Origin: an uncultured virus (IMG/VR IMGVR_UViG_3300033066_000375)
Taxonomy: Duplodnaviria > Heunggongvirae > Uroviricota > Caudoviricetes
DNA length: 64,000 bases
Virus record (IMG/VR): IMGVR_UViG_3300033066_000375
Reading direction: 5' to 3' (one strand)
Positions 14,670 through 37,415 of the stretch are shown in pieces; positions within the stretch are counted from its first letter, which is position 1; each line of letters opens with the position of its first letter. The notes below the pieces were generated by a model. That model did not search any database, was not told the DNA's origin, and worked only from the letters and a program-made list of their open reading frames with translations. A program made the translations under genes and the position numbers.

Positions 14670-14703
14670 CAAGAAACTCTAAATAAAGTATATTACAAAC
14701 AAT

Positions 14704-14792: not shown

Positions 14793-14896
14793 CTCCCGTT
14801 AGCTCAGTGGATAGTCAGCACGGACCTTCTTGAAAACTTTTTTGAGAGTCTTCAAGAAGTCCGGGGTCGGGGGTTCGAATCCCTCACGGGAGGCCA
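14793..14896 (+). tRNA. tRNA-Arg with 26-nt hairpin insertion (putative intron) in the anticodon loop
   Basis: Intact acceptor, D and T arms and CCA; CGGAC/GTCCG stem encloses 33 nt (14826-14858) instead of 7. Confidence 0.85.
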
Positions 14897-15426
14897 AATT
14901 CGAACCCCACATATAAATAGAATCCGCCATCGGGAAGCAGGGTGGACAAAAGAACTCCCAATTTGGTACAATGTGGATTACAGACGGTACTTCAAGAAGG
15001 TTGGAAACGTGGCAGATCATGAAAATTTACATCTTAATCGAATTTTACACTTATGATGATGAGGAAGAGATCATCAATGTTTTCACTGATGAAGTCCTAG
15101 CAAACAAATATTTAGATTCCTTTAGAAAGAATCAACCGCTAAATGCATATCAACTCCGAATTATCGACACAACTGAAGAGGATTTAGAAGATGGAAACGA
15201 TTAAGCTTGTATTGTCAGCACTAATCATGTTATGCTTCATTGTACCTTTCTGGTGGGTTGTAGTCATCTAATGGCTATCTTGTCAGATATTCTTAGCATC
15301 TTAGTACCATTGATTTTGCTCTGTGCATTTATTCCAGAGATTCCGATCATGGCTATCGAAAACTTCAAAGAGATTTGGAAGTCAATTAAGAGTCAATGAT
15401 ATATACTCCTAAACAGGAGCAATATC

Positions 15427-15903
15427 ATGCGTAGACTGATTTTACCATTTGTATTTTTATTCATTTCTAGTTGTGCCACAGTTCAGACTGATAATGAGTT
15501 AGCATACCCGACACCAATTACACATACTACCGAACATTCAGTTCCATTATCAAATCCTTCAAAAGAACAAATAAGTTCAGAACTTGGTCTAGCATTCGAT
15601 AAGTCAGAATGGACAGACAAAGAGAGATTAGCATTTGCATTATCATTATTAGCAAATGCGGCTGATCTTTATACATCACTCAATGATGATGGCACATGTG
15701 TAGAATCTACACCACTCTTAGGTAAGAATCCAAGCGATGGATTGTTAATAAGTGTAAAATTAATCGCAATAGGTTTCGAATATTGGTTATATAATAATCC
15801 TAAATTTCATACTGGTACACATTGGTATGGATTTACATCTGCTGTATATCATGGTATAACAGCATACACAAACAGTCAGAATGACTGTTTCAAGAATCGA
15901 TGA
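15427..15903 (+). CDS. Putative lipoprotein / membrane protein
   Basis: Lipobox-like ISSC after a hydrophobic leader; ADLYTS...VESTPLLG. Confidence 0.6.
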   Translation: MRRLILPFVFLFISSCATVQTDNELAYPTPITHTTEHSVPLSNPSKEQISSELGLAFDKSEWTDKERLAFALSLLANAADLYTSLNDDGTCVESTPLLGKNPSDGLLISVKLIAIGFEYWLYNNPKFHTGTHWYGFTSAVYHGITAYTNSQNDCFKNR

Positions 15904-15913
15904 GGATATTACC

Positions 15914-17172
15914 ATGTCATTATTTAAAGTCGTATTAAGTTCTGAAGTCATAGTCGTAGCAAGGGATGAAGAAGACGCAATGACACAAGCTGAAAGTTGT
16001 CAGCATGACATTGCCAGTGCTGGTGAGTTCTATGCAGAATCATCAGAACAAGTCTTTAAAATCAAAGACTTACCTGTTGGGTGGAACAAAGATTGTATCC
16101 CGTGGAATGCAAACGAAAGAATTGAAACCTTGCTAAAGAGTTCTTGACATGGATATCGATGATGAGTATGATGGAACCTTCAAACAAGTGATCATCTTTC
16201 TGTTCATAGCGATGATCGTATTTTAATCAACCTCAAACATAGAGATATACAAATGAATACTTATGCCGTTATCACTAATAAGCTGAATAACAAGTCTACG
16301 CGAGTGCTGGTGCGAAATGGTGCCATCAATTCTCGCCAATGTAATGACGCTATCAATCGTGTTGGTACTAGCGATTATCGAAAGTGCGATCTGATGTCTA
16401 ACATTCCTGTCACTGTGCTTGGTTCAAAGCCTATTATGCGTATTACCAAGTCTGGCACGCATCTTTCGTCAGAGAATGAAATTCGCATCATTCAGAATTC
16501 TACTGAGCGTTATACTGTTGCATATAAGATGGAACAGAACGAAAATGGTGGTCTTACGCGAATTCAATACGCAGTAGCACGCACTGCACCGCGAGATAAT
16601 TATTCTCGCAAGCTTGGTCGCACTATTGCCACTGGTCGTCTTAATAGTGGAAAAGAAAAAAATGTGCATGAACTGATTCTTGATGGCTCATTCCAATTCC
16701 CAGCTACTGGAAAGGATTGGAAGGAACTTGAAGATGGTATTAAGGTCTATGCAGAATCTCTGTAATGCTCCCGCATTTAGAATGTGCTTTTAAAATTGGT
16801 GAAACAGTTAGAGAAATGGGCTTAACAGACTTTATGATTGTTAAGTCCATTGCTCCAAAGCGATCTAACAAGGGATACACATTCTGGGAAATCTATTGCG
16901 AAAACATTGACACTGATGAAGTTAAGATGTATCATGAGTGGCAGATAGTTTCGAATGAAGTAGAAACCTAAAGGATAGATATGAAGAAGTTGATTGCGTT
17001 GGTCATTGTGTGTATGATGTTGGTTGGATGTGGCAAAGTAGGTCGTATAGAGGCCGCACTGACTGGTTGGAGCGAAAGTTGCGTTGATGGTGTTACATAT
17101 CTACAATTCACCTCTGGTGTTACAGTAAAATACAATCGTGATGGTACGGTTGCTACTTGCAAAGATCACTAA
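15914..17172 (+). other. Hypothetical ORFs (15914-16147, 16253-16765, 16765-16971, and lipoprotein 16981-17172)
   Basis: Co-directional ORFs with RBS; 16981 has an LVGC lipobox. Confidence 0.6.
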
Positions 17173-17183
17173 ATAGATGTTAT

Positions 17184-17260
17184 GCGCTAGTAGTCCAGCG
17201 GCAGGAGACAACAGACTTAGAATCTGTACAGGGTGGGTTCGAATCCCTCCTAGCGCACCA
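17184..17260 (+). tRNA. tRNA-Leu(UAG), short variable arm
   Basis: GCGCTAG/CTAGCGC, ACAGA-CTTAGAA-TCTGT, CCA. Confidence 0.88.
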
Positions 17261-17632
17261 TTTATGATCTAACTCTAAAGGAATTTGTTTATCCATCCAA
17301 GTAGTTAAACTACAGCAACTACATTTCCTATCGAAGATTGCATCACGGAAAAGTCTTTCTTTTAGTTTAAATGTTTGATAATGTGGATGTAGTCCTTCTA
17401 GGATTTCAGTAAGTGGTATTACTGGTTTAAAATATTTTTTACCTTTATTGTGTGCTTGACCTGTAAAATGAGTTACATCTAGTTTATTTGTTTTAATGTG
17501 ATGGTGTATAGATTTGTATGCGCCTCCAGATGCATTTAAGTTTAGTTTCTGTAAAACTTGTGCAATAGATGATGATGACTTGACAGCATCTTCCAACTGT
17601 TCTATAGTGTAGCTGTAATTTGATTTTTTCAT
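17261..17632 (-). pseudogene. HNH homing endonuclease truncated at its catalytic motif
   Basis: AVKSSSSIAQVLQKL, THFTGQ and CSCC...WMDKQIPLELDH motifs, then runs into the antisense of tRNA-Leu. Confidence 0.75.
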
Positions 17633-17697
17633 TGTAGTAGACTCTCAATTATATATGTATTTAGTGTCTACCTTAATAATTTTTATAAATATGTGAT

Positions 17698-17839
17698 GGG
17701 GTTGTGGCGGAATGGTAGACGCAGCAGACTCTTGTAGAGTTCTTTCACTAGAAAGAAAGGATTTTCGGATGGATGGAAAATTCATCCGAAAATCTGCCGC
17801 CCTCTGGGCGTGAGGGTTCGAATCCCTCCTACCCCACCA
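17698..17839 (+). tRNA. tRNA-Leu(CAA) with 57-nt structured insertion in the anticodon
   Basis: Leu-type D arm and long variable arm; GCAGA-CTC[57 nt, 17732-17788]AAAA-TCTGC; CCA. Confidence 0.8.
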
Positions 17840-17888
17840 GATTTTTTAGTTGTTGACAAGCACTATATAGTAGTGTATGATTTAAAAA

Positions 17889-17950
17889 TGTGGTCGAATG
17901 TTATGGGTTATCATATCGAAAAAAATATCCCAAACAATTAACTTACCACA
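17889..17950 (+). ncRNA. Minimal Y RNA-like stem (Ro60-binding-type)
   Basis: TGTGGT-CGAA-TGTTATGGG-TTATC...CCCAAACA-ATTAACTT-ACCACA; starts just after a TTGACA-N17-TATGAT promoter. Confidence 0.6.
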
Positions 17951-18024
17951 AGAATTTATATAGCGGTGGTTTAACTGGTTAAAATGCCATTTTTTCAAAT
18001 TGGAAGACCACCAATAAATGTTAT

Positions 18025-18104
18025 GCCCGGTTAGCTCAGAGAAAGAGCAATCCCATCGTCGTCGTTGGGATAGGTCGGTGGTTCAAGTCCATCATCGGGC
18101 GCCA
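18025..18104 (+). tRNA. tRNA-like gene with aberrant 12-nt anticodon loop (possibly Asp-derived)
   Basis: Canonical acceptor, D and T arms, discriminator G, CCA; ATCCC-ATCGTCGTCGTT-GGGAT. Confidence 0.7.
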
Positions 18105-18664
18105 AATTAGGATAGTTATGAATAAAACCATATCATTGGAAGAGTTCCTAGAGAAATTAGAAAATGCTAGTGCGATTGTTTTGAGTGGTTATTTAACATT
18201 TTATTTTGGTCACATAAAAGAATTGCAGTATTTTACAATTGACCGTAATGGTGAAGATATAAAGTTTTTGTACGTTGACAATAAAAATGTGCAGGTCTAT
18301 TCTAAACCAGATGGTTCATATTCATTTGCTAATATCATTTGTTCTCAAGGTAGAGTATATGATATTTCACTGTTAACATATGTAGAACTATAAATAGAAT
18401 AAATTTACAAGACGAAAGAAAATAGGTTACCAATACTGATAGCTAGGACGGCAACAATAGAGCCTAAAAAGTGTACGATACTAACATGCAAATAAGTGTC
18501 ATGGTTAGACAAGAGTCTAAATCGTAACCAGCAGATGTAAAAGTCTGTTTCAATGACGAAACATTGAATCCTATTTTCATTACCTTGCTTGTGATATAAA
18601 TTTTCGAAACAAATTTTTGTACTCGCATAAATAAGAAAGTAACATTAATAAAAGCGAGTTCAAA

Positions 18665-19327
18665 ATGAAAAAATACGATCATCTAAGAGAGAAAGCAAAA
18701 ACATTAAGAGAGCAAGGATATTCTCTTATAGAAATAAGTAATATGCTTGGAAAGGCAAAAACTACGGTTTATCATTGGTTAATAAATTTTGAAGGATATA
18801 AATCCAAAACTCTAGAATCACATAAATCAGAAAAATGTAAGGCAAGTCTTAAAGCAGCAGTTAAAGCAAATACTGAAAAGTATGACAAATTAAGAAAAAC
18901 AGCTTATTTGGATGGTACGAGTATTTTTGTAAATGATTCTAAAAATCTTAGAGATTTTGCTTTACTATATTTAACAGAAGGGCATAGAAAGACGAAATGG
19001 GCACCATCTATTTCTAATTCTAATTGGAAAATAATAGCATTTTCAAAAAAGATATTTGAAAAATATTCTGATAAAAAGATTGGATATAGAATTCAATATC
19101 ATGCTGATCAAGATTTGAATCAAATAAAGAGTTTTTGGGCTGAAAAACTTTGTATACTACCAACTGAAATTAAACTACAACGAAAAAGTAATTCTGGTAA
19201 ATTAAAAGGTAGGAATTGGGCGTCTGTAAATGGTGTGTTGGCAATAACTGTAAATGACACATATTTAAGAGAAAAAATACAAGCTTGGATGGACTTAGTA
19301 GAAAAAGACTGGGAACTTGATTTATAA
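18665..19327 (+). CDS. HTH plus LAGLIDADG-like putative homing endonuclease
   Basis: N-terminal HTH (GYSLIEIS..KTTVYHW); ALLYLTEG..SISNSN motif; located among tRNAs. Confidence 0.6.
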   Translation: MKKYDHLREKAKTLREQGYSLIEISNMLGKAKTTVYHWLINFEGYKSKTLESHKSEKCKASLKAAVKANTEKYDKLRKTAYLDGTSIFVNDSKNLRDFALLYLTEGHRKTKWAPSISNSNWKIIAFSKKIFEKYSDKKIGYRIQYHADQDLNQIKSFWAEKLCILPTEIKLQRKSNSGKLKGRNWASVNGVLAITVNDTYLREKIQAWMDLVEKDWELDL

Positions 19328-19366
19328 GTTGCTACTGGCACTAAATAGATGTATGATATTCATAAT

Positions 19367-19444
19367 CCGAGATTGGCGCAGTTTGGCTAGCGCATCTGCT
19401 TTGGGAGCAGAGGGTCATAGGTTCGAATCCTATATCTCGGACCA
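19367..19444 (+). tRNA. tRNA-Pro(UGG)
   Basis: TCTGC-TTTGGGA-GCAGA; canonical cloverleaf; CCA. Confidence 0.92.
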
Positions 19445-19630
19445 AATTTTGCCAGTAACTCTAAAAAACTGGCCGTTGTCGATTAACGGAAATCGAATAA
19501 TGTTTGCGCGATAACACAAACTATGTTCAAAGGATTGTGAAATAAATCCTATAGCATCGGTCAAGGCTATATCAGGCATTGAAACTGTAGATAGAAGTGA
19601 TTAGACACATGACCAAGAATTTAGTAAAAT

Positions 19631-19706
19631 GGTTCCTTAGCTCAATTGGGAGAGCGTCTGGCTTACATCCAGAAGGCACTCGGATCGAAACCGAGAGGAA
19701 CCACCA
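19631..19706 (+). tRNA. tRNA-Val(UAC)
   Basis: TCTGG-CTTACAT-CCAGA; CCA. Confidence 0.9.
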
Positions 19707-20122
19707 AGTTTATTATAAAGTCTGTCTGTCTATTACCATGTAGCGCTATGGTCAATATCAAAAGGTATAGCTAGCCGATTGATATAATGCGTTAGAAGAT
19801 ACATTGACGATATCTTCGGTAGACTTTATAACTTATTCAGAGACAAAATGAAAGACGATAACTACATACGCCAAAAAATCATTGATTTATATTTCAATAA
19901 ACATCTTCCCATATCAGTGATAAAAGATCAAGTCAATAAATCAGAAACCTTTATTGAGCGTGTTATCATCAAGCATTCAGATTTCATTCGCAAATAATTA
20001 AAACTCTGGCAGGTAACGTACCTTACGCCCAAAGTAAAAAAACGTAACGGGAGTAGAGTCCTCCTTGCACTTTGCGAAATTCTTTGATAGTATTTCATCA
20101 CACTGAACTGATGGGGATAGAA

Positions 20123-20754
20123 ATGCGAGCTTATGTCGGTGAAACTGTAATTGCACAATCCGAATCAAAATTTAGAAATTTTACAGCAAGTGATTGGGCC
20201 ATGTATTTCATTAGTCGTTATGGTCAGACTGATGGCGGTCATCACAAGGCTTGGGTTCTTGACCAAGTTTCCAGAATCCTTAAGGGCACTGGGATTGAAA
20301 TCAAGATAGCGTCATGGTCTGATGGATATATTGAATATCGTGTGTCAACAGTAGAGCCACCCTCTCAAGAATATATTGATTGGGTGCAAGAAATGCTTGG
20401 CACGTATGATGTAGAAAACGAATGTTATGAATATGGCTATGACGAAGGAATTGCACCGTGATTAACGATCCTGTAACTGTAGACCTTGAATCAACTCTTG
20501 ATTCTATCATGCATCGAATTGGTAAAATGTCATATCCAGAAGATGCGCCTATGATTAGGAGTGATGCAAAGCATAAGATTAAGCAAGGATGGCTTCCAAC
20601 TGAGATTGTTAACTATCTTCGTTGTCATGAAGAGGTTGACAAGGAACTTGATGAAGATGTAGCATTGGCACGAATGGCATCTATCAGGGAACGTGTATTG
20701 AAGCGTCTTGGAATTAAAGATTTTCCGTGGATTCCTTCAAGTGATGATGACTAA
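20123..20754 (+). other. Two hypothetical phage ORFs (20123-20461, 20458-20754)
   Basis: First carries YGQTDGGHHKAWVLDQ...YDEGIAP; overlapping stop/start. Confidence 0.65.
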
Positions 20755-20767
20755 ATAAGAGATATGT

Positions 20768-20844
20768 GGCCGGGTAGCCTAGCGGTCTAGGGCGCAATCC
20801 TGATAAGATTGAGATCGAAGGTTCGAATCCTTCCCCAGCCACCA
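20768..20844 (+). tRNA. tRNA-Ile(GAU)
   Basis: CAATC-CTGATAA-GATTG; CCA. Confidence 0.9.
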
Positions 20845-20916
20845 ATTTACGAACCCATACTATTAGTTTGCTCACTTTTATACACTAACTATAAATAGTG
20901 TAAAAGAGAGTTCGAT

Positions 20917-21651
20917 ATGGGAAAATATATAAGCGTAAAAAATTGGAGAATGAAAGCTAGAGCAGCTATAATAGCTTCCATGGGCGGGAAATGTCAGATT
21001 TGTAATTATGATAAATGTAAAAAAGCTTTAGAATGCCATCATATAGATCCATCTGAAAAAGAGGTTTCATTTTCAAATATATCGAAAAGTGATGATATTG
21101 CAAAAGAATTATGTAAATGTATATTATTGTGTGCAAATTGTCACAGAGAAGTTCATGATAAACATTTGACAATTTTATTACCAAATGATTATTTTAGATT
21201 TGATCAAGCCATATTCGATGCCATAATACACTCTAAGATAGAGAAATCTATCAAAAAATATAAAAAAAATGACAAAGATGAAGATATTCAACAAAAGAAA
21301 CAAAGAATATTAGAAAGTAATATAGATTTTTCTAAATCTTGGCAATTAGAAGTTGCAAAAATTTTAGATAGATCACCATGTAGTGTTATGCGGTGGTTGA
21401 AAAAACATTTACCAACTATTTTAGACGATAAAAACACATGGTCATCTGATAAAAATTCTGAATTTGTAAAGAATAGAATTAACATGATTGAGTATAGTGG
21501 TATAGATTATACTAAACGTGGTTGGACGGTTAAATTATCAAAACTATTAAAAATAACTCCACAAAAAACATCTAAATGGATTAAGAAATATATGCCAGAA
21601 TTTTACAAATTGTATTCAAGAAAAATTTCAGTTGACAACTTCACTAAATAG
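20917..21651 (+). CDS. HNH homing endonuclease with C-terminal repeated HTH-like units
   Basis: GGKCQICNY..ALECHHIDP..KCILLCANCHREVH; TATAAATA upstream. Confidence 0.88.
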   Translation: MGKYISVKNWRMKARAAIIASMGGKCQICNYDKCKKALECHHIDPSEKEVSFSNISKSDDIAKELCKCILLCANCHREVHDKHLTILLPNDYFRFDQAIFDAIIHSKIEKSIKKYKKNDKDEDIQQKKQRILESNIDFSKSWQLEVAKILDRSPCSVMRWLKKHLPTILDDKNTWSSDKNSEFVKNRINMIEYSGIDYTKRGWTVKLSKLLKITPQKTSKWIKKYMPEFYKLYSRKISVDNFTK

Positions 21652-21668
21652 ATGTACCATATGATTTT

Positions 21669-21743
21669 GGGGCTATAGTTCAGCGGGAGAACGTTTGCTT
21701 TGCAAGCAAGATGTCGTCGGTTCGATTCCGACTAGCTCCACCA
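21669..21743 (+). tRNA. tRNA-Ala(UGC)
   Basis: GGGGCTA acceptor with G3-U70; TGC anticodon; CCA. Confidence 0.92.
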
Positions 21744-21754
21744 AAAAATTTTGA

Positions 21755-21830
21755 CGCGCTGTACTATCAATGGCAGAGGATCAGGCCCATAACCTGATGG
21801 TTCCACGTTCGACTCGTGGTAGCGCTACCA
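21755..21830 (+). tRNA. tRNA-Met(CAU), initiator-like
   Basis: C1-U72 mismatch; TCAGG-CCCATAA-CCTGA; CCA. Confidence 0.8.
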
Positions 21831-21851
21831 AATTTCTTATAAAGTTTCAGT

Positions 21852-21928
21852 GGTGGCTATAGTGTAATGGTTTCGCACAAGAGGCTGTGAACCTCTGAGA
21901 GAAAGTTCAAATCTTTCTAGTCACACCA
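21852..21928 (+). tRNA. tRNA-His(GUG)
   Basis: G-1; AGAGG-CTGTGAA-CCTCT; CCA. Confidence 0.88.
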
Positions 21929-21935
21929 AAATATC

Positions 21936-22014
21936 GCCGTGTTAGCTCAGTCTGGCCAGAGCGTCTACCTTGTAAGTAGAGGGTTCGGGGGTTCGAATCC
22001 CTCACGCGGCACCA
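21936..22014 (+). tRNA. tRNA-Thr(UGU)
   Basis: TCTAC-CTTGTAA-GTAGA; CCA. Confidence 0.92.
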
Positions 22015-22065
22015 AATTTGCACAATCATTTTCGAATCGTATAAATAGCAGAAAAGGAATCGAAA

Positions 22066-22677
22066 ATGAATAAATCAGAAGCTGGCAAACTTGGCGCTAT
22101 AGCATCAGCAGAAACAATTTCCAAACTAAAACAAGACAGAATCAATTCTTATTACGTAACTCCGAAACAATGCAAGAATTGTGATGAGGTAATAGCTTAC
22201 GAATATAGAGTAAATGCATTCTGTTCTAGTAGCTGCTCTGCGACATTCAATAATCTTAGAAAATCCAAAAAAGATCATGGAACCTGTGATGAGTGTCATA
22301 CACCATTAACTTGTAAGAAACATCCAAAAAATAATAATAATTTTTGTGATAGAAATTGTCAAAGCGCATTTAATAATAAATTGAATTTTGAATTGTTTCA
22401 AAAAGGTGAGTTAGCTAGCGTAGCATCAAAAGCGCAAATGATCAAACTTCACGGCTTCAAATGCATGGATTGTGGTTGGGACAAAGTTAATCCACTATCC
22501 AACAAATGTCCAGTAGAACTTGAACACATTGATGGTAACAGTCAAAACAATCTCCCAGATAATTTAAAACTATTATGTCCTAACTGCCATAGCTTGACAC
22601 CAACATACAAAGCGCTTAATGTTGGTAAAGGTCGCTATTCACGCATGAAGAGATACAACGAAGGAAAGAGTTCCTGA
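22066..22677 (+). CDS. HNH homing endonuclease
   Basis: Zn-finger Cys clusters; VELEHIDGNSQNNLPDNLKLLCPNCHSLT; TATAAATA upstream. Confidence 0.9.
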   Translation: MNKSEAGKLGAIASAETISKLKQDRINSYYVTPKQCKNCDEVIAYEYRVNAFCSSSCSATFNNLRKSKKDHGTCDECHTPLTCKKHPKNNNNFCDRNCQSAFNNKLNFELFQKGELASVASKAQMIKLHGFKCMDCGWDKVNPLSNKCPVELEHIDGNSQNNLPDNLKLLCPNCHSLTPTYKALNVGKGRYSRMKRYNEGKSS

Positions 22678-25584: not shown

Positions 25585-25590
25585 GGAACG

Positions 25591-28490: not shown

Positions 28491-28701
28491 TCAACAACTT
28501 AAGGAGATTCAAAATGCGTAATCTAATCAATCACTGGCAATGCTGGCTTGTTCCTGCCATTGCGATTGGCTTGGGTACGTTCATCATGGTAGTCATGGTG
28601 GATGCAGTCAACAAGTTCTAAAAACAAAAAGTAATTAAACCCTATTGACCTGTAGACATATTAATGGTATGCTACAGGTCAATTCATTTATGGGATCAAC
28701 A

Positions 28702-29658: not shown

Positions 29659-29827
29659 GCAAAAACTGATAGCAGGATTAGAGCAAATAGTCAAGGATTG
29701 GTACGATCATTGTCCCAAATCCTTGACGTTTGTTTCTAAAGTAATACAACTATTCAGAGAGTACAAAAGAGAGGTTGACAAGTAATTAATTACAGCGTAT
29801 GCTTCACACATCAACAACGGATGTGTC

Positions 29828-30157: not shown

Positions 30158-30161
30158 GAAA

Positions 30162-30668
30162 ATGCTGAAAGTGTCACACTATGGCGCATCAATGAAGCCT
30201 GTCGAACTTCTCCAGCAGGCTGAACAAATTTGCAAGCTAATGGCAATTAAACTTAAGGAAAATCAAGTAGTTGTATTGTTTTACTCTGGAATGTCTGGAG
30301 TTGCTAGTGCTACTGCATTAGCACTAACTATGCAGCGATTTAATATGAAACTTGGTGGAATGGTATACATCCGTAAACAAAATGAAGTATCACATGGTAG
30401 TGATATTGAAACTAGTCTTATGAATGTGAAAAAAACCGATGATTTGGTTCCCATCTTTGTGGACGATTTTGTATGTAATGGCACAACATTTAAATATGTA
30501 CTCACTCGTGTGGTAAACAGAATTTCATACCGTGGAATGTTCTTTAACAAAACAAGTAGAAATGTGCTTAACATTTTTGATAAGTTATTGATTAATAAAG
30601 ATAATTGGTGGATTGCTCAATTAAACACCAAAGAACTAAAGAAAGCCAACAAAGTTCAAATGGAGTAA
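30162..30668 (+). CDS. Phosphoribosyltransferase-like protein
   Basis: YSGMSG; PRPP-binding loop IFVDDFVCNGTT. Confidence 0.7.
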   Translation: MLKVSHYGASMKPVELLQQAEQICKLMAIKLKENQVVVLFYSGMSGVASATALALTMQRFNMKLGGMVYIRKQNEVSHGSDIETSLMNVKKTDDLVPIFVDDFVCNGTTFKYVLTRVVNRISYRGMFFNKTSRNVLNIFDKLLINKDNWWIAQLNTKELKKANKVQME

Positions 30669-31008
30669 TTGAAAGTGCTTGACAGGGCCGAAGAAAAGGG
30701 TTATATTGTATACATGAAATGCAACTTCCTCACTGAAGAGGAAGTTGCAGAATCTAAGAAGTATCTCCGTGAATATCTTGAAAAGGATGAGGAAGAATGA
30801 CTTTCGGTGATGTTGTCAATGATATCAAGAATTTTGTAGGTGCGTATGTTTTCACTGGTCTGCAAATGATCTTCGCTGGTTGTGGCATTATCATTATGCA
30901 AGTGCTAGCATTCTTGCTGATGATTCCACTGATTGCTGTTGCGATCTACTGTGTTGCATATTTTCTTATGGGTATTATGAAAGTCTTTGAATTCATTTCT
31001 TACGGGCA

Positions 31009-31425
31009 TTGGTGATGCATCTTATAACTCCAACCACCAGACAAATGCGTTATTTTATGCGTGCTTGTCTGGCGATGAGTAAATCTACTCATGGCATTCC
31101 TACTGGCTGTGTTATTGTCTCTGGGAACTATGTAGTATCTGAAGGATTCAATCAAGAGAAATCCCATACAATTCAACATAGGAATGATCGAAGGGTTTCG
31201 TATTATGCCCCATATGCAAAAATTCACGCAGAAGTTAATGCATTAATTAAGTCGAAACATTTCGATCTTACTGATTGTGAAATCTTTCTGTTTCGTCAAG
31301 ATAAGCATGGTATGATTGCTAATAGTAGGCCGTGTATTTCGTGTATGCCAGCACTAATTGATGCTGGTATTAAGCATGTGTATTATACATCTACTGCTGG
31401 ATATTGTTATGAGCGTGTGTGTTAA
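31009..31425 (+). CDS. Cytidine/deoxycytidylate deaminase family protein
   Basis: HAEVNAL and SRPCISC zinc motifs. Confidence 0.88.
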   Translation: MVMHLITPTTRQMRYFMRACLAMSKSTHGIPTGCVIVSGNYVVSEGFNQEKSHTIQHRNDRRVSYYAPYAKIHAEVNALIKSKHFDLTDCEIFLFRQDKHGMIANSRPCISCMPALIDAGIKHVYYTSTAGYCYERVC

Positions 31426-31681
31426 TGAATTTTTATTTCAAATGGAAACTTCCTAAAACTAATAGAGCTATATTTGTATCAGAGAATGGCGATATCAAAG
31501 AAATGCGATTGGATGTACTATATCAAATTATACCATTCATTCAACTAGGAGATTGTGGAACAATCATAGACAACGGTGGAAGACCTAAATTTATCCTCTT
31601 AGCAGAAGAACAAGAAGAAGTGCCTTTACAATTAACCCATGATGTGGTATAGTACCACTACCTAATAAGAGAGGTTACACA

Positions 31682-33484
31682 ATGACATTACAAGTTTATA
31701 TTACTGAACACAATGATAAGTTCCTTTGTACTAAGGAACAGGCAGACGTATTAGATACGCTGCGCGAAGTTAATAAGGGTGGCATTGGTGCCGTCCATGG
31801 TTATGTTCCAACGTCTGGCTATGATATTTCCCCTGAATTGGATATCCAGTTCATTACTCGTATTTCAACTAATGCATTATACGAGCGAAAGATCGCTGCA
31901 TTAGAATCAATTAAGTTTGAAGATATTGTGAGCGAATTGGGACAGAATCCCAAACTTGCCGCATTGACGTTTAACGAAGCGAAGGATTTGTTTGAATTGC
32001 GTAAGCAGTCAAGCATTGATTCCATGAAGAAGACACTTTCCGGTGACCGTTCAGGTTCAGCCCGTGAAGGTCATGATCGTAATAATATTTCTGTCTGCCA
32101 GGGACTAAAGGTTAATCTTGAAGGTACAAAGGTTAATGGGCAGAAGATTCCAACATTGTACCCATTCAAGGGCGAAAAGCTCCCTAAGTGTGAAAGCATT
32201 CTGTTAAGCTATCTGGAAATTTCACGCACTGTTGTCAAGCCTGGACAGTATAAGGTGGTCAATTCTGGTGCGCCAGTGCTGATGAGCGATTTGATCGAAT
32301 CCAAGCTTAATAAGAAGAGTGTTGGTCTTAAGACTCTATCACTTGATCCATCCAAGTTCCGCAGCATTTCTCTTGCTAAGAAGCAGATTCTTCGCGAAGA
32401 CTTAGTTAATGCTACAAAGGATTTGACAATTGTTGAAATGATCATGCACCTGTTGAGTGAATATGATAACGAACAGACAGCCACGTCAAAGATTATCAAT
32501 CATATTATCTACGTGTTGGATTGTTCATCTTCAATGAGCCTTCATTTAGCTACTGCGCGTAAGGTATTAACTGATTCATTGGCAGCGATCAAAGCTACGT
32601 CTGAAAGTATGGGACAAGAGACTTATGTTTCTCTATACACATTCGCAGATAATGTTAATCGTTTGTTCGTGGATAAACCAATTAATCAGGTGAATCTGAA
32701 CAACATTAGATTTGACGCATATGGCTGGACTGCATTGATTGATGCAACTCTATTGCCAATTCTTGATGGATGTGAAACTCAGGTTGCTCGCGCTAAGAAA
32801 GAAAATCACGCTTATCTGTTGAATGTTATTACAGATGGTCAAGAGAATAAGTCGAAGGCTAAGGTCGCTGAATTGACCAATGTTATCAATAAGCTTAATG
32901 ATGAATGGACATTGGCTATTCAGGTTCCTGATATGAATGGTGTGTATTATGCAAAAAATTGTGGCTTCCCTGCTGGCAACATTCAGATTTGGAATCCTAA
33001 TTCACGTACTGGTTTAGAAGAAAGTACATCATCATTCGTGGACTCATATGCAAACTATGCTGCTGCGCGTAGTGCTGGCGCAACACAAAGCAAGGGCTTT
33101 TACACTGTAAATGCTGCTGATCTTTCACGATCAAATGTGAAGGCTGAACTTAATGAAGTCAAGGGTAAGATTTATCATGCTCAGTCTGGCCCATATCAGA
33201 TTAGGGATTTCATTGAGCAGTATGCCAAGGTTGTTTATAATAAGGGTAAGGCATATTATGAATTAGTCAAGCCTGAATTGATTCAATCTTCTAAGAAGAT
33301 TGTGATTGTTGATAAGGTTAGTGAAAAGAAGTTTGGTGGTGATGGCGCCCGTCAAATGCTTGGGATTCCTGCAAAGAATGTCAAGGTTGCCCCAGGTGAT
33401 TATGGTAACTATCGTATCTTCGTTCAGTCAACATCAGTCAACCGTAAGGTAGCCAAGGGAACTTCTGTCTTTCTTGAAGAATGA
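31682..33484 (+). CDS. Fusion protein: unknown N-terminal domain plus von Willebrand factor A domain
   Basis: MIDAS LDCSSSM, GWTALIDA and VITDGQEN motifs; N-terminal half paralogous to 57387-58151. Confidence 0.8.
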   Translation: MTLQVYITEHNDKFLCTKEQADVLDTLREVNKGGIGAVHGYVPTSGYDISPELDIQFITRISTNALYERKIAALESIKFEDIVSELGQNPKLAALTFNEAKDLFELRKQSSIDSMKKTLSGDRSGSAREGHDRNNISVCQGLKVNLEGTKVNGQKIPTLYPFKGEKLPKCESILLSYLEISRTVVKPGQYKVVNSGAPVLMSDLIESKLNKKSVGLKTLSLDPSKFRSISLAKKQILREDLVNATKDLTIVEMIMHLLSEYDNEQTATSKIINHIIYVLDCSSSMSLHLATARKVLTDSLAAIKATSESMGQETYVSLYTFADNVNRLFVDKPINQVNLNNIRFDAYGWTALIDATLLPILDGCETQVARAKKENHAYLLNVITDGQENKSKAKVAELTNVINKLNDEWTLAIQVPDMNGVYYAKNCGFPAGNIQIWNPNSRTGLEESTSSFVDSYANYAAARSAGATQSKGFYTVNAADLSRSNVKAELNEVKGKIYHAQSGPYQIRDFIEQYAKVVYNKGKAYYELVKPELIQSSKKIVIVDKVSEKKFGGDGARQMLGIPAKNVKVAPGDYGNYRIFVQSTSVNRKVAKGTSVFLEE

Positions 33485-33736
33485 TCTTGACAAGTAATTG
33501 ATTGTATAATATAATCCCCGTCTAGATAAATAACACTCTAGACGGGGATTTTTATGTTTACAACTTTTGTAATTCTGATGATCATTGCGTGGACTGTTGT
33601 TGGTATCATGTTCAAGTGTGCGATTGATTCTATGCAGAGTGAATCGTTCCATAAAATGTTTACTCATGCTCGTATTGGTGCTATACTCCTAACTGGAATA
33701 ACAATTATAACATTTATTAGTTAAGGGGCAATACAA

Positions 33737-34309
33737 GTGGGACAAACATGGTTTTCGAGCGATCAACATTATTCACATAAAAATATAATCAAATATTCAA
33801 ATCGTCCTTTCGCAGATGTTGAAGAGATGAATTATGAACTGATTAAACGATGGAACAAATGTGTGAAACCAGACGATACAATATATCATCTTGGTGATTT
33901 TGCATTTTGTAATATTGAAAAGATAGAATCGATTCTATCACAATTAAATGGCACTAAACATCTGATCAATGGTAATCATGATAAACAGATCAAACAAAAT
34001 CGTAGTAGATTGATTGATGGAGGATTTGTCAAATCAGTTAAAGATTATGACGAAATTTATATCAATGGCCAATTTATTGTGTTGTTTCATTATGGTTGTA
34101 GGGTTTGGTCGCGGAGCCATCATGGCGCATTTATGCTATACGGTCATTCACATTCATCTTTACCACCATTTGGTAAATCTGTAGATGTTGGTGTTGATTC
34201 TACCTGGGTCACTGGTAAAGCAGAATACCGCCCATTTTCATTTTATGAAATCAAACAATTTATGGACAGGCAAGTTTCAGAAGTTGTTGACCATCACGGT
34301 GCTGATTGA
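33737..34309 (+). CDS. Calcineurin-like metallophosphoesterase
   Basis: SDQH, LGDF, GNHD and YGHSH motifs. Confidence 0.9.
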   Translation: MGQTWFSSDQHYSHKNIIKYSNRPFADVEEMNYELIKRWNKCVKPDDTIYHLGDFAFCNIEKIESILSQLNGTKHLINGNHDKQIKQNRSRLIDGGFVKSVKDYDEIYINGQFIVLFHYGCRVWSRSHHGAFMLYGHSHSSLPPFGKSVDVGVDSTWVTGKAEYRPFSFYEIKQFMDRQVSEVVDHHGAD

Positions 34310-34366
34310 TTCAGCCACCGTTCATAAACATTTGCTATACTTCGATCATCGAATAGGAAGTCACCA

Positions 34367-34846
34367 ATGATTAAGATTATCAAGAAAGATATCACTACAG
34401 TCACCAAAGGTATTGTAGGTCAAGGGGTAAATTGCTTGGCTGTGATGGGTGCGGGAGTCGCTCTAGCTATTGCAAAGAAATGGCCAAAAGCATTAGCAGA
34501 ATATAAACAATATCTAGGAAAATTTGGCCAAACTCCATACCTAGCATTAGGCATGGTTCAATTGTCAGCCATTGATGATAAGGGTGAATTGATTATTGCC
34601 AATTGTTTTACTCAAGTAAGTGTTGGATATGACAAGGATGGTAACCCACCAGCTAGTCTCAGTGCTATTGAAGATTCACTGCGATCACTGGTGAAGACAT
34701 GTAATATCCGCCATCAAGACCTTTATACACCCCAGATTGGTTGTGGTCTTGGTGGACTGGACTGGGAAACTCAAGTGAAGCCTATCTATGAAAAGCTTTC
34801 TGAAGAGTTGGATGATGATTTGAATTGGTATGTATGTACAATCTAA
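34367..34846 (+). CDS. Macrodomain (Appr-1-p / ADP-ribose hydrolase, T4 Tk.4-like)
   Basis: GVNCLAVMGAGVA, IANCFTQ and PQIGCGLGGLDW motifs. Confidence 0.88.
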   Translation: MIKIIKKDITTVTKGIVGQGVNCLAVMGAGVALAIAKKWPKALAEYKQYLGKFGQTPYLALGMVQLSAIDDKGELIIANCFTQVSVGYDKDGNPPASLSAIEDSLRSLVKTCNIRHQDLYTPQIGCGLGGLDWETQVKPIYEKLSEELDDDLNWYVCTI

Positions 34847-36083
34847 GGAATGATTATGAACGAAAATATTAAAGATGCAACTTACAATGAAGGTAATGAA
34901 CGTCAGCGAATGCTAAATCAATTGGCAAAGAATGGCTTACGCGGTGATGATGTACATGGTAAGCTTGCTTGGAACATTGTCACACAGACTCATGAACTAG
35001 CATACAAGCAAGACGAACTCTTCGCTGAATTATGCAATCTAATCAATAAGATACGTAATAGTAGACGTTGATTTAGCTTTTAGAAACGTAATTTTATTCT
35101 GAGTGGATGGCTGTGGTATAGCTAGCAATGACTGTTGTTTTTATACCACACCAACATATCACACAGTGTATATGTACATTGTACATACGTATGCGTTAGC
35201 ATTTAATTTATTACTGGACTACATCATGTATAACACAGAAGATGAAGCTATTGCACGAATCGAATTCTGTCTACGTAGATCAACATTACTGTATAAGATT
35301 TATTTACTAGTAAGACGATTCAGCAATGTTTATTATGGTGACACTCCACCATTAAGCATTCATAATAGAATGCGCTCATTACATAATAATATGGACTACT
35401 ATTTAGATCAAGCTAGAAACGTTCGCTGTGATGGACATTCTGTTGATACAATTTTGAAGTATGTTTCTTCGAGAAAAACTGTGTTATCAGATATTACATA
35501 TAGAAAAGTTTACAGAAAGAAATTCTATTACAGTAAAGCTAATAGAATGTTGAGTAAATATCTTGAAGTTAGATATCCTCCAGCATTAAAAAATGCTAGT
35601 TACGTATGGAATCCATTACAAAATGAAAAAGTAGATGATGATATTGGTATAACTAAATTAGATGAACCGTATAACTATGATAACGGGTTCATCTATGACA
35701 CAGAGTTTTACCATCCAGAGATGGCCTGTGGATAACTTTTCCAGAGGGCATAGTCTCGCCAACCCTTGATAATAGCAGACCATTTCTGAACAGACACTGA
35801 ATATTTACATTTTCCTTAAAAAATATTTTTGAATCTGTTCAGCGTCAATTCAGTTATAAAAGAAGTCATTTCAGCTTCAACATACCTTAACACGTCAGAG
35901 ATCACATCACAAGTTACAATCTTTTATAAAAAAGTGCTTGACAAATATAAAGTAATAGTATAAAATGGGTGCGTGGTCGGAGAGAAGTGACGAGCAAACT
36001 AGTGTGGTGAAAATACAACAAAAATAAACCTTGACATGATTCCTTTATATGGTATGATGATCACAACAAACGGGAGACAACAC

Positions 36084-36461
36084 ATGCAATTCGATACCAC
36101 TGGTGGTCTGTCCTTCGAAAGTGCTTGTGATCTGGTCGTGATGCATTGTAATCCTGAAATGGCTGATATGGATAATCCGCGTGGTGAAGTTTATGGATAT
36201 CGCCCATTCATATTCGCTACTGATAGCATGGGTAATCGTAAAGTCATGTATACTGGTCCTGCTACTCGCGATGAAGGCGCTGCCATCAAAGATGCAGACA
36301 ATGTTGCAAAGTGCTTGCAGGCTCGCTGGAACAATTATCATAAGCTCCCCGTAGCATTCGATGCGTGGCAGGATACTCGCCCAGCATATGGTTCAGAAGC
36401 TTATCAGGCATATGGCGCAGCTGATGATCTGGCATGGGAACGTGAGCAAGAGTTTTATTGA
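36084..36461 (+). CDS. Hypothetical early protein
   Basis: TTGACA promoter and RBS GGGAG; RPAYGSEAY motif. Confidence 0.65.
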   Translation: MQFDTTGGLSFESACDLVVMHCNPEMADMDNPRGEVYGYRPFIFATDSMGNRKVMYTGPATRDEGAAIKDADNVAKCLQARWNNYHKLPVAFDAWQDTRPAYGSEAYQAYGAADDLAWEREQEFY

Positions 36462-36520
36462 TTCAGTCACCGTTCAGCTAAGTTCTGTATAATACAATCC
36501 ATACCAACGGAGACAAGCAA

Positions 36521-37039
36521 ATGACCATCGAATCTGATCTGCGCGATGCCTTCAACCGTCACATGGACAAAGCATGCAGTCTTTATCCGAATCTGGCAAT
36601 CATTCGCAATCGTCTGCAATTCATCATTGAACCGAACATGGGTCAACGTGCGGGCACTGCCCGTGGTGCTTCTGAAATCCGTGTGAATCTGGCAATGGCG
36701 AAACAGAATTTTGATCACATCGCGAACGATACCATCCCGCATGAGATTGCGCATATCATCTGCAATCATTTCAATTGGGACAATGGCCATGGGCGCATGT
36801 GGAAACGTGTAGCAGCATCGCTTGGAATCGTTCCAAATCGTTGCTTTTCCACTGTTGACACAGGCATCAAGCCTGTTATGATGCGTCAACGGCTCAAGTA
36901 TCTGCACAAGGCAACGTGTGGGACTGAAATCTGGCTCAGTGATGTGATGCATGGTAAGATCATGCGGGGTGGCATCCGCGTCATTTCCCGTACTGGTGGT
37001 AAGTTGAAGGCTAGCACATACATGGATCAAGTGAAATGA
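36521..37039 (+). CDS. SprT-like zinc metalloprotease
   Basis: RAGTA, TIPHEIAH and GHGRMWK motifs. Confidence 0.85.
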   Translation: MTIESDLRDAFNRHMDKACSLYPNLAIIRNRLQFIIEPNMGQRAGTARGASEIRVNLAMAKQNFDHIANDTIPHEIAHIICNHFNWDNGHGRMWKRVAASLGIVPNRCFSTVDTGIKPVMMRQRLKYLHKATCGTEIWLSDVMHGKIMRGGIRVISRTGGKLKASTYMDQVK

Positions 37040-37314
37040 TAACCCCATCGGCATGGATGTTTGAGCAGTTTTGTATAACTTGTCCTGAATATCAGTATGA
37101 AAATGAATGGGCTGTACAATACGCTGATACCCATCCATCACATTTTTTCATATATGATGAGAAACAATTTCGCAACATAAAGCCCTTGTACTCTGTAGGG
37201 AATGTGTTAGACTTGCTGACTGATGACAAAGCACGCGAAGAGTTTCTAGCTGAGTTTCTGAATAAATAGTTCTTGCATACTGCAATAGTATGATGTATAG
37301 TAGCAAAACAGTCT

Positions 37315-37415
37315 GGGAGCGTGGCCAAGTGGTAAGGCAGCAGACTTTTTTAGTACTTTTTCGAGAGTATTAAAAAATCTGTTCATCGTGGGTTCGAATC
37401 CCACCGCTCCCACCA
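37315..37415 (+). tRNA. tRNA-Lys(UUU) with 26-nt hairpin insertion (putative intron)
   Basis: GGGAGCG/CGCTCCC acceptor, intact D and T arms, CCA; GCAGA/TCTGT stem encloses 33 nt (37345-37377). Confidence 0.85.

What the first reader, a model, noticed from the sequence alone, without database searches (positions are those of the whole stretch)
14793..37415. Two tRNAs share an identical-geometry 26-nt hairpin intron, consistent with an RNase III plus RNA ligase 1 splicing route
Seen: tRNA-Arg (14793-14896) and tRNA-Lys (37315-37415), 22 kb apart, each have 33 nt inside the anticodon stem. Both fold as bulged C32, a 14-bp helix and a UUYG tetraloop. The apex ACTTT-TTYG-AGAGT is shared. The helix base covaries with each anticodon (TTCTTGAA/TTCAAGAA versus TTTTTTAG/TTAAAAAA), so the anticodon is sequestered. 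No bulge-helix-bulge or group I core is present. The only excision giving CU-UUU-AA for Lys keeps 4 nt of the 5' strand and 2 nt of the 3' strand; the same cut gives CU-UCU-AA for Arg. That is a staggered cut with 2-nt 3' overhangs, 10 bp from the loop. Established: RNase III makes such cuts with 5'-P/3'-OH ends, the substrate of T4-type Rnl1 (encoded at 10791-11924), and tRNA-Lys(UUU) is a classic anticodon-nuclease target (PrrC). Inference: the phage stores nuclease-proof pre-tRNAs and matures them with host RNase III and its own ligase.
Basis: partly seen in the sequence, partly recalled or inferred. Interest (0 to 1): 0.9.

Follow-up and report, generated by a model that had tools for sequence, protein, structure and literature searches.

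The report
Short hairpin introns in phage tRNAs
Two tRNA genes of a giant T4-like phage are each interrupted in the anticodon loop by a conserved 26-base hairpin that looks like a new kind of enzyme-removed tRNA intron, but whether and how it is cut out has not been shown.

Summary
Window 14793-14896 and 37315-37415 are tRNA genes with 33 nt between the anticodon-stem strands. Each folds into bulged C32, a 14-bp helix and a UUUG or UUCG tetraloop, and both share the apex ACTTT-TTYG-AGAGT. It is not chance, an assembly error or a dispersed repeat.

Related ~310-kb T4-like jumbo phages supply intron-less counterparts. These place the 26-nt insert between nt 36 and 37, giving CU-UCU-AA; a twin pair gives CU-CUU-AA. 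Exons are almost invariant, 74 of 75 between window and G002. The insert diverges (19 of 33) but keeps pairing through compensatory changes.

In 7 of 7 hairpin-class inserts, the splice sites lie opposite each other in one duplex with a 2-nt 3' stagger. Rnl1 is confirmed.

The RNase III plus Rnl1 route remains inference:
- No RNA data were available.
- No phage RNase III was found.
- The conserved apex hints at a specific factor.
- The relatives carry full end-healing kits.
- Rnl1 is common in phages without such inserts.
- Other inserts in the same phages (57 nt, ~50 nt) do not fit one staggered cut.

Unexplained tRNA introns were reported in Lak megaphages in 2019. This is a new, better-defined variant.

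The parts
14793..14896 (+). tRNA-Arg(UCU) gene with hairpin insert (W1). The 5' exon is 14793-14830 and the 3' exon is 14857-14896, with CCA encoded.
   Evidence: ARAGORN -i. Cloverleaf fold. Aligned with the intron-less G002 ortholog. Not detected by Rfam's tRNA model.
14831..14856 (+). 26-nt insert of W1, between nt 36 and 37. It has a 10-position stem, a UUUG loop and a 2-nt 3' extension (AG) that pairs with C35 and U36.
   Evidence: The 26-column gap in the alignment with G002 83854-83930. Fold. Stagger check.
37315..37415 (+). tRNA gene with hairpin insert (W2). The anticodon is UUU (Lys) if it is spliced like W1. The 5' exon is 37315-37349 and the 3' exon is 37376-37415.
   Evidence: Rfam tRNA 60.1 bits. 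ARAGORN -i. Orthologs in G001, G002 and metagenome contigs.
37350..37375 (+). 26-nt insert of W2. It has a 10-bp stem, a UUCG loop and a 2-nt 3' extension (AA) that pairs with U35 and U36.
   Evidence: Fold. Covariation across 5 sequences. Stagger check.
10791..11924 (+). T4-type RNA ligase 1 (Rnl1), the candidate sealing enzyme.
   Evidence: Pfam T4_Rnl1_C 1.4e-23 and RNA_lig_T4_1 2.5e-10. K100, D102 and G103 are invariant in 3 homologs.
14666..14694 (+). Promoter-like site (TTGACA-17-TATATT, 11 of 12 matches) upstream of the tRNA pair 14704-14788 and W1.
   Evidence: Consensus scan. This is a consensus match only.
14704..14788 (+). A second tRNA(UCU), 85 nt with a long variable region, 4 nt upstream of W1. 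It is likely co-transcribed with W1.
   Evidence: ARAGORN. Rfam 41.9 bits.
17698..17839 (+). tRNA-Leu(CAA) with a 57-nt insert (17732-17788) between nt 34 and 35. This is a different insert class in the same phage.
   Evidence: ARAGORN -i. Rfam 44.4 bits. The intron-less G002 ortholog has near-identical exons.

Best explanation
Both loci are tRNA genes of a ~310-kb T4-like jumbo phage. They are interrupted between anticodon nt 36 and nt 37 by a short, protein-dependent 'hairpin intron'.

The intron's 3' end pairs with the anticodon, so the whole anticodon loop is buried in a 14-bp helix stacked on the anticodon stem (shown). The two splice sites face each other across this helix with a 2-nt 3' stagger (shown, given the junctions inferred from intron-less homologs).

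The most likely route is inferred. A double-strand-specific RNase III-family enzyme, probably the host's, cuts both strands at once. This releases a hairpin with a 2-nt 3' overhang and leaves a tRNA nicked in the anticodon loop with 3'-OH and 5'-P ends. The phage's Rnl1, or one of its other ATP-dependent RNA ligases, then seals the nick.

Why the phage keeps such introns is open. Possibilities are delaying or gating maturation, or hiding the anticodon from modification enzymes or anticodon nucleases.
For: 1. Real tRNA genes with the stated fold.

2. Intron-less counterparts fix the junction. G002 83854-83930 has CTTCTAA where W1 has CTTCT+26 nt+AA. G002 34337 and 35367 have identical bodies and differ by CT(T/C)TT+26 nt+AA.

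3. The signature of an intron. Window versus G002, exons match at 74 of 75 positions, against intron 19 of 33, flanks 185 of 333 and 175 of 330, and the Rnl1 gene 905 of 1147. There are also compensatory acceptor-stem changes between two insert-bearing orthologs (GCG/CGC versus GAG/CTC).

4. Helix covariation. 95.8% of cells are paired, against 82.0 +/- 2.3 in shuffles. 9 of 19 pairs change on both sides, 4 of them inside the insert helix. Slid registers reach 55.6% at most.

5. In 7 of 7 hairpin-class inserts, the last 5'-exon nt pairs with the intron nt two positions before the 3' splice site. These cover 4 anticodons, 3 lengths and 3 apex types.

6. For G001 141158, that stagger rule plus a 7-nt loop predicts CCA. 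This matches the TCTCCAAAAC loop of the G002 and G003 Trp tRNAs and its position next to the 50-nt-insert tRNA.

7. The composite helix of 5 + 14 bp is cut near its middle, with 9 bp on the body side and 10-12 bp on the loop side.

8. Rnl1 lies 2.9 kb upstream of W1, at the edge of the tRNA cluster.

9. RNase III excision of hairpin 'intervening sequences' from 23S rRNA is established (PMC8708148, passage seen).
Against: - No RNA evidence. No RNA run was listed, so splicing itself is unproven.
- No RNase III gene in the two complete relatives or the partial one: 0 of 3 for PF14622 and for PF00636. The host is unknown.
- The apex (5 bp, including a U.G pair, plus the loop) is invariant or nearly so across three non-orthologous tRNAs, while the lower stem has diverged fully. 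That suggests sequence-specific recognition, which generic RNase III does not need.
- The distance from loop to cut is not fixed.
- Other inserts in the same phages do not fit a single staggered cut. These are the 57-nt insert at 34/35 and the 50-51-nt inserts with a T-arm-like hairpin.
- The relative G002 encodes an AAA_33 kinase, several metallophosphoesterases, cREC, an Acb1-type 2H enzyme, Macro and several PF09414 ligases. A cut that leaves 2',3'-cyclic-P/5'-OH ends could therefore be repaired equally well.
- Rnl1 is widespread in phages without such inserts.
- W1 has an irregular D stem and is missed by Rfam, so it could be decaying.
- The 7-of-7 count is partly not independent. The 26-nt inserts share ancestry, and the W2-type junction is set by analogy.
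Confidence: 0.38

Rival explanations
1. True introns, but removed by a dedicated, still unrecognised phage endonuclease. It would read the conserved apex (ACUUU-UNCG-AGAGU) or the bulged-C helix. The ends are then healed by the phage kinase and phosphoesterases and sealed by Rnl1 or an Rnl2-type ligase.
For: The apex sequence, including the U.G pair, is invariant in 5 of 5 aligned inserts from three different tRNA genes, while the lower stem is rewritten. G002 carries a full healing and sealing kit. Most ORFs near the tRNAs have no Pfam match. Other insert classes in the same genomes need some non-RNase-III route anyway.
Against: No candidate nuclease was identified. No EndA or RtcB was found, 0 of 3 records each. 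B1 (33 nt) and A2 (28 nt) lack the apex yet keep the same 2-nt stagger, which points to a shape-reading enzyme rather than a sequence-reading one.
Confidence: 0.22
2. Not spliced. The RNA works as made, as a tRNA body with a rod in place of the anticodon loop. It could be a decoy or inhibitor for anticodon nucleases, or a partner of another tRNA-binding factor such as the phage Ro60/TROVE protein.
For: The anticodon is fully sequestered and the helix is under selection. G001 and G002 also have intron-less tRNA(UUU) genes, so decoding need not depend on these copies. G002 encodes Ro60/TROVE, which works with tRNA-like RNAs in cells (PMC7824862, passage seen).
Against: The exonic loop letters CUUUU..AA stay fixed, even where the intron partner changes to a wobble (B1, B2). 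That is as expected for a used anticodon and not for a mere helix. W1's ortholog in G002 and B2's twin are ordinary tRNAs with the predicted anticodon loop. No Rfam Y-RNA-type match was reported at E<=1.
Confidence: 0.2
3. Neutral or selfish DNA. A small palindromic element inserted into anticodon loops and the genes are dead or dying.
For: Presence and absence of the insert varies between close relatives. Homing-endonuclease genes sit in the tRNA cluster, for example HNH at 14097-14669. W1 has an irregular D stem and is missed by Rfam.
Against: The exons are far more conserved than the flanks. There are compensatory changes in the acceptor stem and in the insert helix. The 2-nt 3' extension of the insert is matched to each anticodon. 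The motif is absent outside anticodon loops.
Confidence: 0.1
4. Spliced, but at another junction. The 37315 tRNA would then be an ochre suppressor (UUA, keeping 3 nt of the 5' strand) and G002 35367 an amber suppressor (CUA).
For: The junction of the W2 family is not fixed by any intron-less ortholog. UUA is compatible with all four orthologs. These phages already carry a tRNA(CUA).
Against: W1 and B2, which have the same geometry, are fixed at 36/37 by intron-less homologs. ORF lengths give no sign of TAA recoding in the window.
Confidence: 0.05

Closest known systems
'Enigmatic' introns in tRNAs of Lak megaphages (Devoto et al. 2019, PMC6784885; passages and Supplementary Table S6 seen)
   Same: Non-group-I inserts in the anticodon loops of huge-phage tRNAs. 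They vary in presence between related genomes, and their excision points were refined by aligning genes with and without the insert. No mechanism is known. One Lak intron contains a T-arm-like element, as do the 50-nt inserts seen here in G001 and G002.
   Different: Lak introns are listed at 23-141 nt and mostly at 76-141 nt. No hairpin or stagger geometry, covariation or candidate enzymes were described in the passages I saw. The phage lineage is different: Lak phages infect Prevotella and use code 15, whereas this is a T4-like jumbo phage.
Intervening sequences (IVS) of bacterial 23S rRNA excised by RNase III (PMC8708148, passage seen)
   Same: An extra stem-loop inserted into a stable RNA and removed by a double-strand cut in its stem. 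This is the best functional analogy for the cutting step.
   Different: IVS are 100-200 nt and the rRNA pieces are not religated. A tRNA nicked in the anticodon loop would need ligation. RNase III action is not shown here.
T4 Pnkp/Rnl1 repair of tRNA-Lys cut by the anticodon nuclease PrrC (recalled; general context in PMC7824862)
   Same: An Rnl1-family ligase sealing a nick in a tRNA anticodon loop. The tRNA(UUU) species is the same.
   Different: That pathway repairs damage made by a host nuclease and needs end healing. Here the break would be a programmed maturation step that directly leaves 3'-OH and 5'-P ends.
Archaeal/eukaryal tRNA splicing (bulge-helix-bulge, EndA/Sen, RtcB or Trl1)
   Same: Protein-catalysed removal of a short anticodon-loop intron that pairs with the anticodon, followed by ligation.
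   Different: There is no BHB motif, because the helix is continuous. The overhang has the opposite polarity. The site is 36/37 (35/36 in one case) rather than 37/38. No EndA or RtcB homolog was found in the relatives.
Group I introns in bacterial and phage tRNA genes
   Same: They also sit in the anticodon loop.
   Different: Those are self-splicing ribozymes of a few hundred nt. A 26-nt hairpin has no catalytic core, and no Rfam intron family was reported.

Membership tests
tRNA (Rfam RF00005) | Cloverleaf that scores above the gathering threshold of 29 bits | tested here: met
   37315-37412 scores 60.1 bits, with the insert treated as a 29-nt loop insertion.
tRNA (Rfam RF00005) | The same feature, for 14793-14896 | tested here: not met
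   Not reported at the gathering threshold or at E<=1. ARAGORN does call it, and RNAfold gives a cloverleaf with a weak D stem.
Group I intron | Conserved P1-P9 catalytic core of about 200 nt or more | tested here: not met
   The insert is 26 nt and forms a single hairpin. No Rfam intron family was reported.
Archaeal-type BHB intron | Two 3-nt bulges separated by a 4-bp helix, with the splice sites in the bulges | tested here: not met
   The MFE and centroid structures are a continuous helix with only the 1-nt C32 bulge. Both splice sites lie inside base pairs.
Archaeal-type BHB intron | A splicing endonuclease (EndA, PF01974) is available | tested here: not met
   0 of 3 related phage records match. 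The control search rings in 4 archaea. The host was not examined.
RNase III substrate | About two turns of coaxial double-stranded RNA | tested here: met
   A 5-bp anticodon stem, a 1-nt bulge and a 14-position helix.
RNase III substrate | Cuts on both strands offset to leave 2-nt 3' overhangs | tested here: met
   7 of 7 hairpin-class inserts, using junctions inferred from intron-less homologs or by analogy. This tests geometry only, not cleavage.
RNase III substrate | Actually cleaved by RNase III; the enzyme is present | not testable with these tools
   No phage RNase III: 0 of 3 records for PF14622 and for PF00636. The host is unknown and no RNA data were available.
T4-type RNA ligase 1 | Rnl1 nucleotidyltransferase domain plus the Rnl1-specific C-terminal domain | tested here: met
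   PF09511 2.5e-10 and PF20819 1.4e-23.
T4-type RNA ligase 1 | Motif I lysine (KxDG) | tested here: met
   K100, D102 and G103 are invariant in the 3 homologs. The peptide is IYMDKKDG. Its equivalence to the T4 catalytic lysine is recalled, not aligned here.
Lak-type phage tRNA introns | A non-group-I insert in the anticodon loop of a huge-phage tRNA, present or absent among relatives | tested here: met
   compared with PMC6784885.

The most novel reading that the evidence does not exclude
A third kind of protein-catalysed tRNA splicing, native to bacterial viruses. An RNase III-family enzyme makes one staggered double-strand cut in a hairpin that buries the anticodon. A T4-type RNA ligase then reseals the anticodon loop directly, without end healing. 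The intron's 2-nt 3' extension is tailored to each anticodon.
Probability: 0.3. Interest if true: 0.9.

Novelty: new variant of a known kind. Interest (0 to 1): 0.72.

Why it matters
Bacteria and their phages are thought to have only self-splicing introns in their tRNA genes. Enzymatic tRNA splicing is treated as a trait of archaea and eukaryotes. The 'enigmatic' tRNA introns of huge phages have had no mechanistic handle since 2019.

This clade offers a small, well-defined case with several useful properties:
- The junctions are fixed by intron-less homologs.
- The helix is covariation-supported.
- The 2-nt stagger is conserved.
- A ligase is co-encoded.

Together these turn the question into a simple test: pre-tRNA plus RNase III, with and without Rnl1. 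If the route is confirmed, it would give Rnl1 a maturation role beyond damage repair. It would also show how phages can gate or shield the tRNAs (Lys, Arg, Trp) that host nucleases attack.

Tried and rejected
- **No whole genome** is held for the window.
- **RNA evidence.** No RNA holder was listed for window 13900-22100, so expression and splicing could not be examined. Laying the contigs of 4 DNA runs showed only that the insert is present and unchanged. No intron-less DNA form appeared at W1.
- **GenBank phages.** Nothing matches at the DNA level beyond single tRNAs.
- **Cultured relatives by Rnl1 (47% identity): Xoo-sp13 and RAS14.** They have a few over-long tRNAs of other kinds but not this hairpin class.
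- **T4 stable RNAs rnaC and rnaD** were checked as possible analogues. They are not alike.
- **Y-RNA or other Rfam families** for the insert-bearing genes: none at E<=1 apart from chance-level hits.
- **Stop-codon recoding** as a reason for odd tRNAs: ORF statistics were inconclusive.
- **Promoter upstream of 37315:** none by the consensus scan.
- **Body similarity** did not settle the identity of G001 141158. The best scores were 53, 52 and 52 of 72, to Ser, Trp and Gly. The Trp reading rests on loop sequence, synteny and the A1-U72/G73 ends; the role of those ends in Trp identity is recalled.
- **MAFFT misplaced the 57-nt gap** in the Leu pair. I used the printed sequences instead.
- **Literature.** Six searches found no paper that describes RNase III- or Rnl1-dependent removal of phage tRNA inserts. 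The library lacks most subscription journals.

Full report
**1. What is in the window**

ARAGORN without the intron option finds 11 tRNA genes and misses both loci. With introns allowed it finds 15. The four extra genes are:
- 14793-14896, called Arg tct with a 26-nt intron.
- 37315-37415, with a 26-nt intron, though ARAGORN chooses the 'Phe aaa' junction.
- 17698-17839, called Leu caa with a 57-nt intron.
- 18025-18104, which has a 12-nt anticodon loop.

Rfam's tRNA model reports 14 matches. These include 37315-37412 (60.1 bits), 17698-17836 (44.4 bits) and 18025-18101 (46 bits). They do not include 14793-14896, even at E<=1. That gene has an irregular D stem.

RNAfold gives both genes a cloverleaf. 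The anticodon stem continues, after a bulged C32, into a 14-position helix closed by UUUG (Arg) or UUCG (Lys). The arm z-scores are -4.83 and -5.02, and 0 of 200 shuffles fold as well.

The exact 14-mer apex occurs only at these two loops in the window. In two related genomes, the looser motif occurs in hairpin context only inside tRNA anticodon inserts. It is therefore not a dispersed repeat.

Contigs from 4 of 4 DNA runs, from four studies, carry the Arg insert unchanged. Rnl1 at 10791-11924 is confirmed by Pfam.

**2. Relatives**

Nothing in GenBank phages is close at the DNA level. Pattern scans and an Rnl1 protein scan of IMG/VR gave three relatives:
- G001, a complete genome with terminal repeats (306,759 bp, Rnl1 67% identical).
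- G002, also complete (314,956 bp, Rnl1 80% identical).
- G003, a 78-kb fragment (Rnl1 54% identical).

A metagenome scan returned 12 loci. Three of them carry the Lys-type gene, in two sequence variants.

Pfam annotation of 347 G002 ORFs of at least 100 aa shows a T4-like jumbo myovirus, with gp23, gp20 and gp15 matches. It has a large RNA-repair kit:
- Rnl1 and several PF09414 ligases.
- An AAA_33 kinase and several metallophosphoesterases.
- cREC, Ro60/TROVE, RlaP and a CCA-adding enzyme.
- Thg1, PTH2, Macro, NADAR and Acb1.

The nearest cultured phages by Rnl1 are Stenotrophomonas phages CM1 and RAS14 (47.6% identity) and Xanthomonas phage Xoo-sp13 (47.2%).

**3. Where the insert sits**

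G002 has an ordinary tRNA-Arg at 83854-83930, in the position that corresponds to the window's Arg gene: Met, then Arg, then Arg, downstream of Rnl1. Its loop is CTTCTAA. The pairwise alignment places one 26-column gap between CTTCT and AA.

G002 also has two tRNA genes 1 kb apart whose bodies are identical. One has the loop CTTTTAA. The other has CTCTT + 26 nt + AA, with the apex ACTTT-TACG-AGAGT.

These two cases fix the junction at 36/37. No other cut reproduces the intron-less loop. For the 37315 gene it holds by analogy, because no intron-less ortholog exists. UUA would fit all four orthologs equally well.

**4. Is the interrupted gene under selection?**

I compared four orthologs of the 37315 gene: window, G001, metagenome L119 and G002.

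| Comparison | Exons | Insert |
|---|---|---|
| Window vs L119 | 75 of 75 | 22 of 26 |
| Window vs G001 | 72 of 75 | 24 of 26 |
| Window vs G002 | 74 of 75 | 19 of 33 |

In G002 the insert is 33 nt with a different apex. For scale, the 300-nt flanks match at 185 of 333 and 175 of 330, and the Rnl1 gene at 905 of 1147.

G001 differs from the others by a compensatory pair in the acceptor stem (GCG/CGC versus GAG/CTC). Helix position 9 of the insert runs T-A (window), C.A (G001) and C-G (L119).

I aligned five 43-nt arms, from three non-orthologous tRNA genes:
- 95.8% of cells pair, against 82.0 +/- 2.3 in shuffles (0 of 500 reach the observed value).
- 9 of 19 pairs change on both sides. Four of these lie within the 14 insert-helix pairs.
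- Slid registers give at most 55.6% paired.
- The apical 5 bp, including a U.G pair, never vary.

With five related sequences these numbers are indicative, not proof. Conserved exons, a fast-evolving but always paired insert, and fixed exonic loop letters are what an intron looks like. They argue against a dead gene.

**5. Geometry**

I took seven hairpin-class inserts and the junctions inferred above. These were window Arg, window Lys, G001 Lys, L119 Lys, G002 CUU, G002 Lys with 33 nt, and G001 141158 with 28 nt and a GUAA loop.

In 7 of 7, the last 5'-exon nucleotide pairs with the intron nucleotide two positions before the 3' splice site. The excised piece would then be a hairpin with a 2-nt 3' overhang. 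The tRNA would carry a nick whose 3' end protrudes by 2 nt.

The 2-nt extension matches each anticodon: AG for UCU, AA for UUU, GA for CUU and for the 33-nt UUU version, and GG for CCA.

For G001 141158, requiring a 2-nt stagger and a 7-nt loop predicts CU-CCA-AA (Trp) and not CCU. Three lines of evidence agree with this:
- The resulting TCTCCAAAAC is the loop of the Trp tRNAs of G002 and G003.
- The gene sits beside a 50-nt-insert tRNA, as the G002 Trp gene does.
- It has A1-U72 and G73. Their role in bacterial Trp identity is recalled, not tested.

Body similarity did not decide the matter.

The distance from the 5' cut to the loop is 10 bp in five cases, 11 in one and 12 in one. The stagger is.

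Limits on this count: the 26-nt inserts share ancestry, and three junctions are set by analogy.

**6. Mechanism**

Both sites lie inside a continuous duplex of 5 + 14 bp, near its middle, with a 2-nt 3' offset. That is the signature of RNase III-family cleavage. Such a cut leaves 5'-P and 3'-OH ends, which are the direct substrate of an ATP-dependent ligase such as Rnl1.

RNase III excision of hairpin intervening sequences from 23S rRNA, without religation, is the nearest established analogy (PMC8708148, passage seen). The reasons for caution are:
- There are no RNA data.
- RNase III is absent from G001-G003, 0 of 3 for each of two Pfam models. It would have to be the host's, and the host is unknown.
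- The invariant apex suggests a sequence-reading factor.
- G002's healing enzymes mean other end chemistries could be handled (context in PMC7824862).
- Rnl1 homologs occur in 1656 phage records. G003 has Rnl1 but 0 of 19 predicted tRNAs carry a hairpin insert.
- The 57-nt insert in the window's tRNA-Leu lies between nt 34 and 35. Its G002 ortholog is intron-less with near-identical exons. Its two splice sites lie in separate short helices.
- The 50-51-nt inserts of G001 and G002 carry a T-arm-like hairpin. Neither of these classes fits a single staggered cut.

EndA and RtcB are also absent, 0 of 3 each.

**7. Rivals**

The rivals are:
- A dedicated phage endonuclease with healing and sealing.
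- An unspliced tRNA-like decoy or partner RNA.
- Selfish or neutral palindromic insertions.
- An alternative junction that would make suppressor tRNAs.

They are scored in their own sections.

**8. Novelty**

Devoto et al. 2019 reported 'enigmatic' introns of 23-141 nt in Lak megaphage tRNAs. They stated that phage tRNA introns had not been reported before (PMC6784885; passages and Table S6 seen). Six literature searches found no mechanism for such introns and no link to RNase III or Rnl1.

The present class is a new, sharply defined variant of that open phenomenon, and it comes with a testable mechanism.

Noticed in passing
window 17698-17839 (insert 17732-17788): tRNA-Leu(CAA) with a 57-nt insert between nt 34 and 35. 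The G002 ortholog (86236-86321) is intron-less with near-identical exons. The insert folds into three small hairpins, and the last one pairs with the 3' exon AAAA. This is a different insert class from the 26-nt hairpin.
   Followed up: partly
window 18025-18104: tRNA-like gene with a 12-nt anticodon loop (ATCGTCGTCGTT) and a D loop without GG. Its G002 counterpart (87001-87076) has a 6-nt loop, and the acceptor stems differ by compensatory changes. Function unknown.
   Followed up: partly
window 8271-8347 and 8320-8985: A tRNA with anticodon CUA (amber suppressor type) is directly followed by a PP-loop (TilS-like) ATPase gene. The same pair occurs in G002, and a tRNA(CUA) also occurs in G001. 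ORF statistics did not show clear TAG recoding in the window.
   Followed up: partly
window 14704-14788: A second tRNA(UCU), 85 nt with a long variable region, sits 4 nt upstream of the interrupted Arg gene. It is preceded by a near-consensus sigma-70-like site at 14666-14694 and an HNH homing-endonuclease-like ORF at 14097-14669.
   Followed up: no
G002 34337-34423 and 35367-35479 (loci L083:2337-2423, L083:3367-3479): Twin tRNAs with identical bodies and a long variable arm (class II-like). They carry Lys-type anticodons: UUU, and CUU after removal of the insert. Which amino acid they carry is unclear.
   Followed up: no
G002 48532-48654 and 48668-48806; G001 141017-141142: tRNAs with 50-51-nt anticodon-loop inserts that contain a T-arm-like hairpin (GATCAGTTCGAATCTGA). 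This recalls the Lak phage intron that 'may itself encode a tRNA'. All begin CTGT, so the anticodon is of the GUN type.
   Followed up: partly
G002 (loci L087-L099): An unusually rich RNA-repair and tRNA toolkit: Ro60/TROVE, RlaP, cREC, at least four PF09414 RNA ligases, an AAA_33 kinase, a CCA-adding enzyme, Thg1, PTH2, Macro, NADAR, NAMPT and Acb1.
   Followed up: partly
window 33737-34846: Adjacent metallophosphoesterase (33737-34309) and Macro-domain (34367-34846) genes lie 2.5 kb upstream of the interrupted Lys gene. They could be RNA-end or ADP-ribose processing enzymes.
   Followed up: no
Xanthomonas phage Xoo-sp13 33820-33912 (L136) and 47563-47661 (L135); Stenotrophomonas phage RAS14 296018-296151 (L137): Cultured jumbo relatives also have over-long tRNA genes. 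One has a ~20-nt palindromic insert (AAACCGGCCGGTTT) in the anticodon loop. These could be experimentally tractable cases of phage tRNA inserts.
   Followed up: partly
L103 (IMGVR_UViG_3300050510_000109, 72-kb contig): A D-arm-less tRNA-like sequence whose anticodon stem encloses a short hairpin with a similar apex (GACTTTCGCGAGAGTC). ARAGORN did not call it.
   Followed up: no
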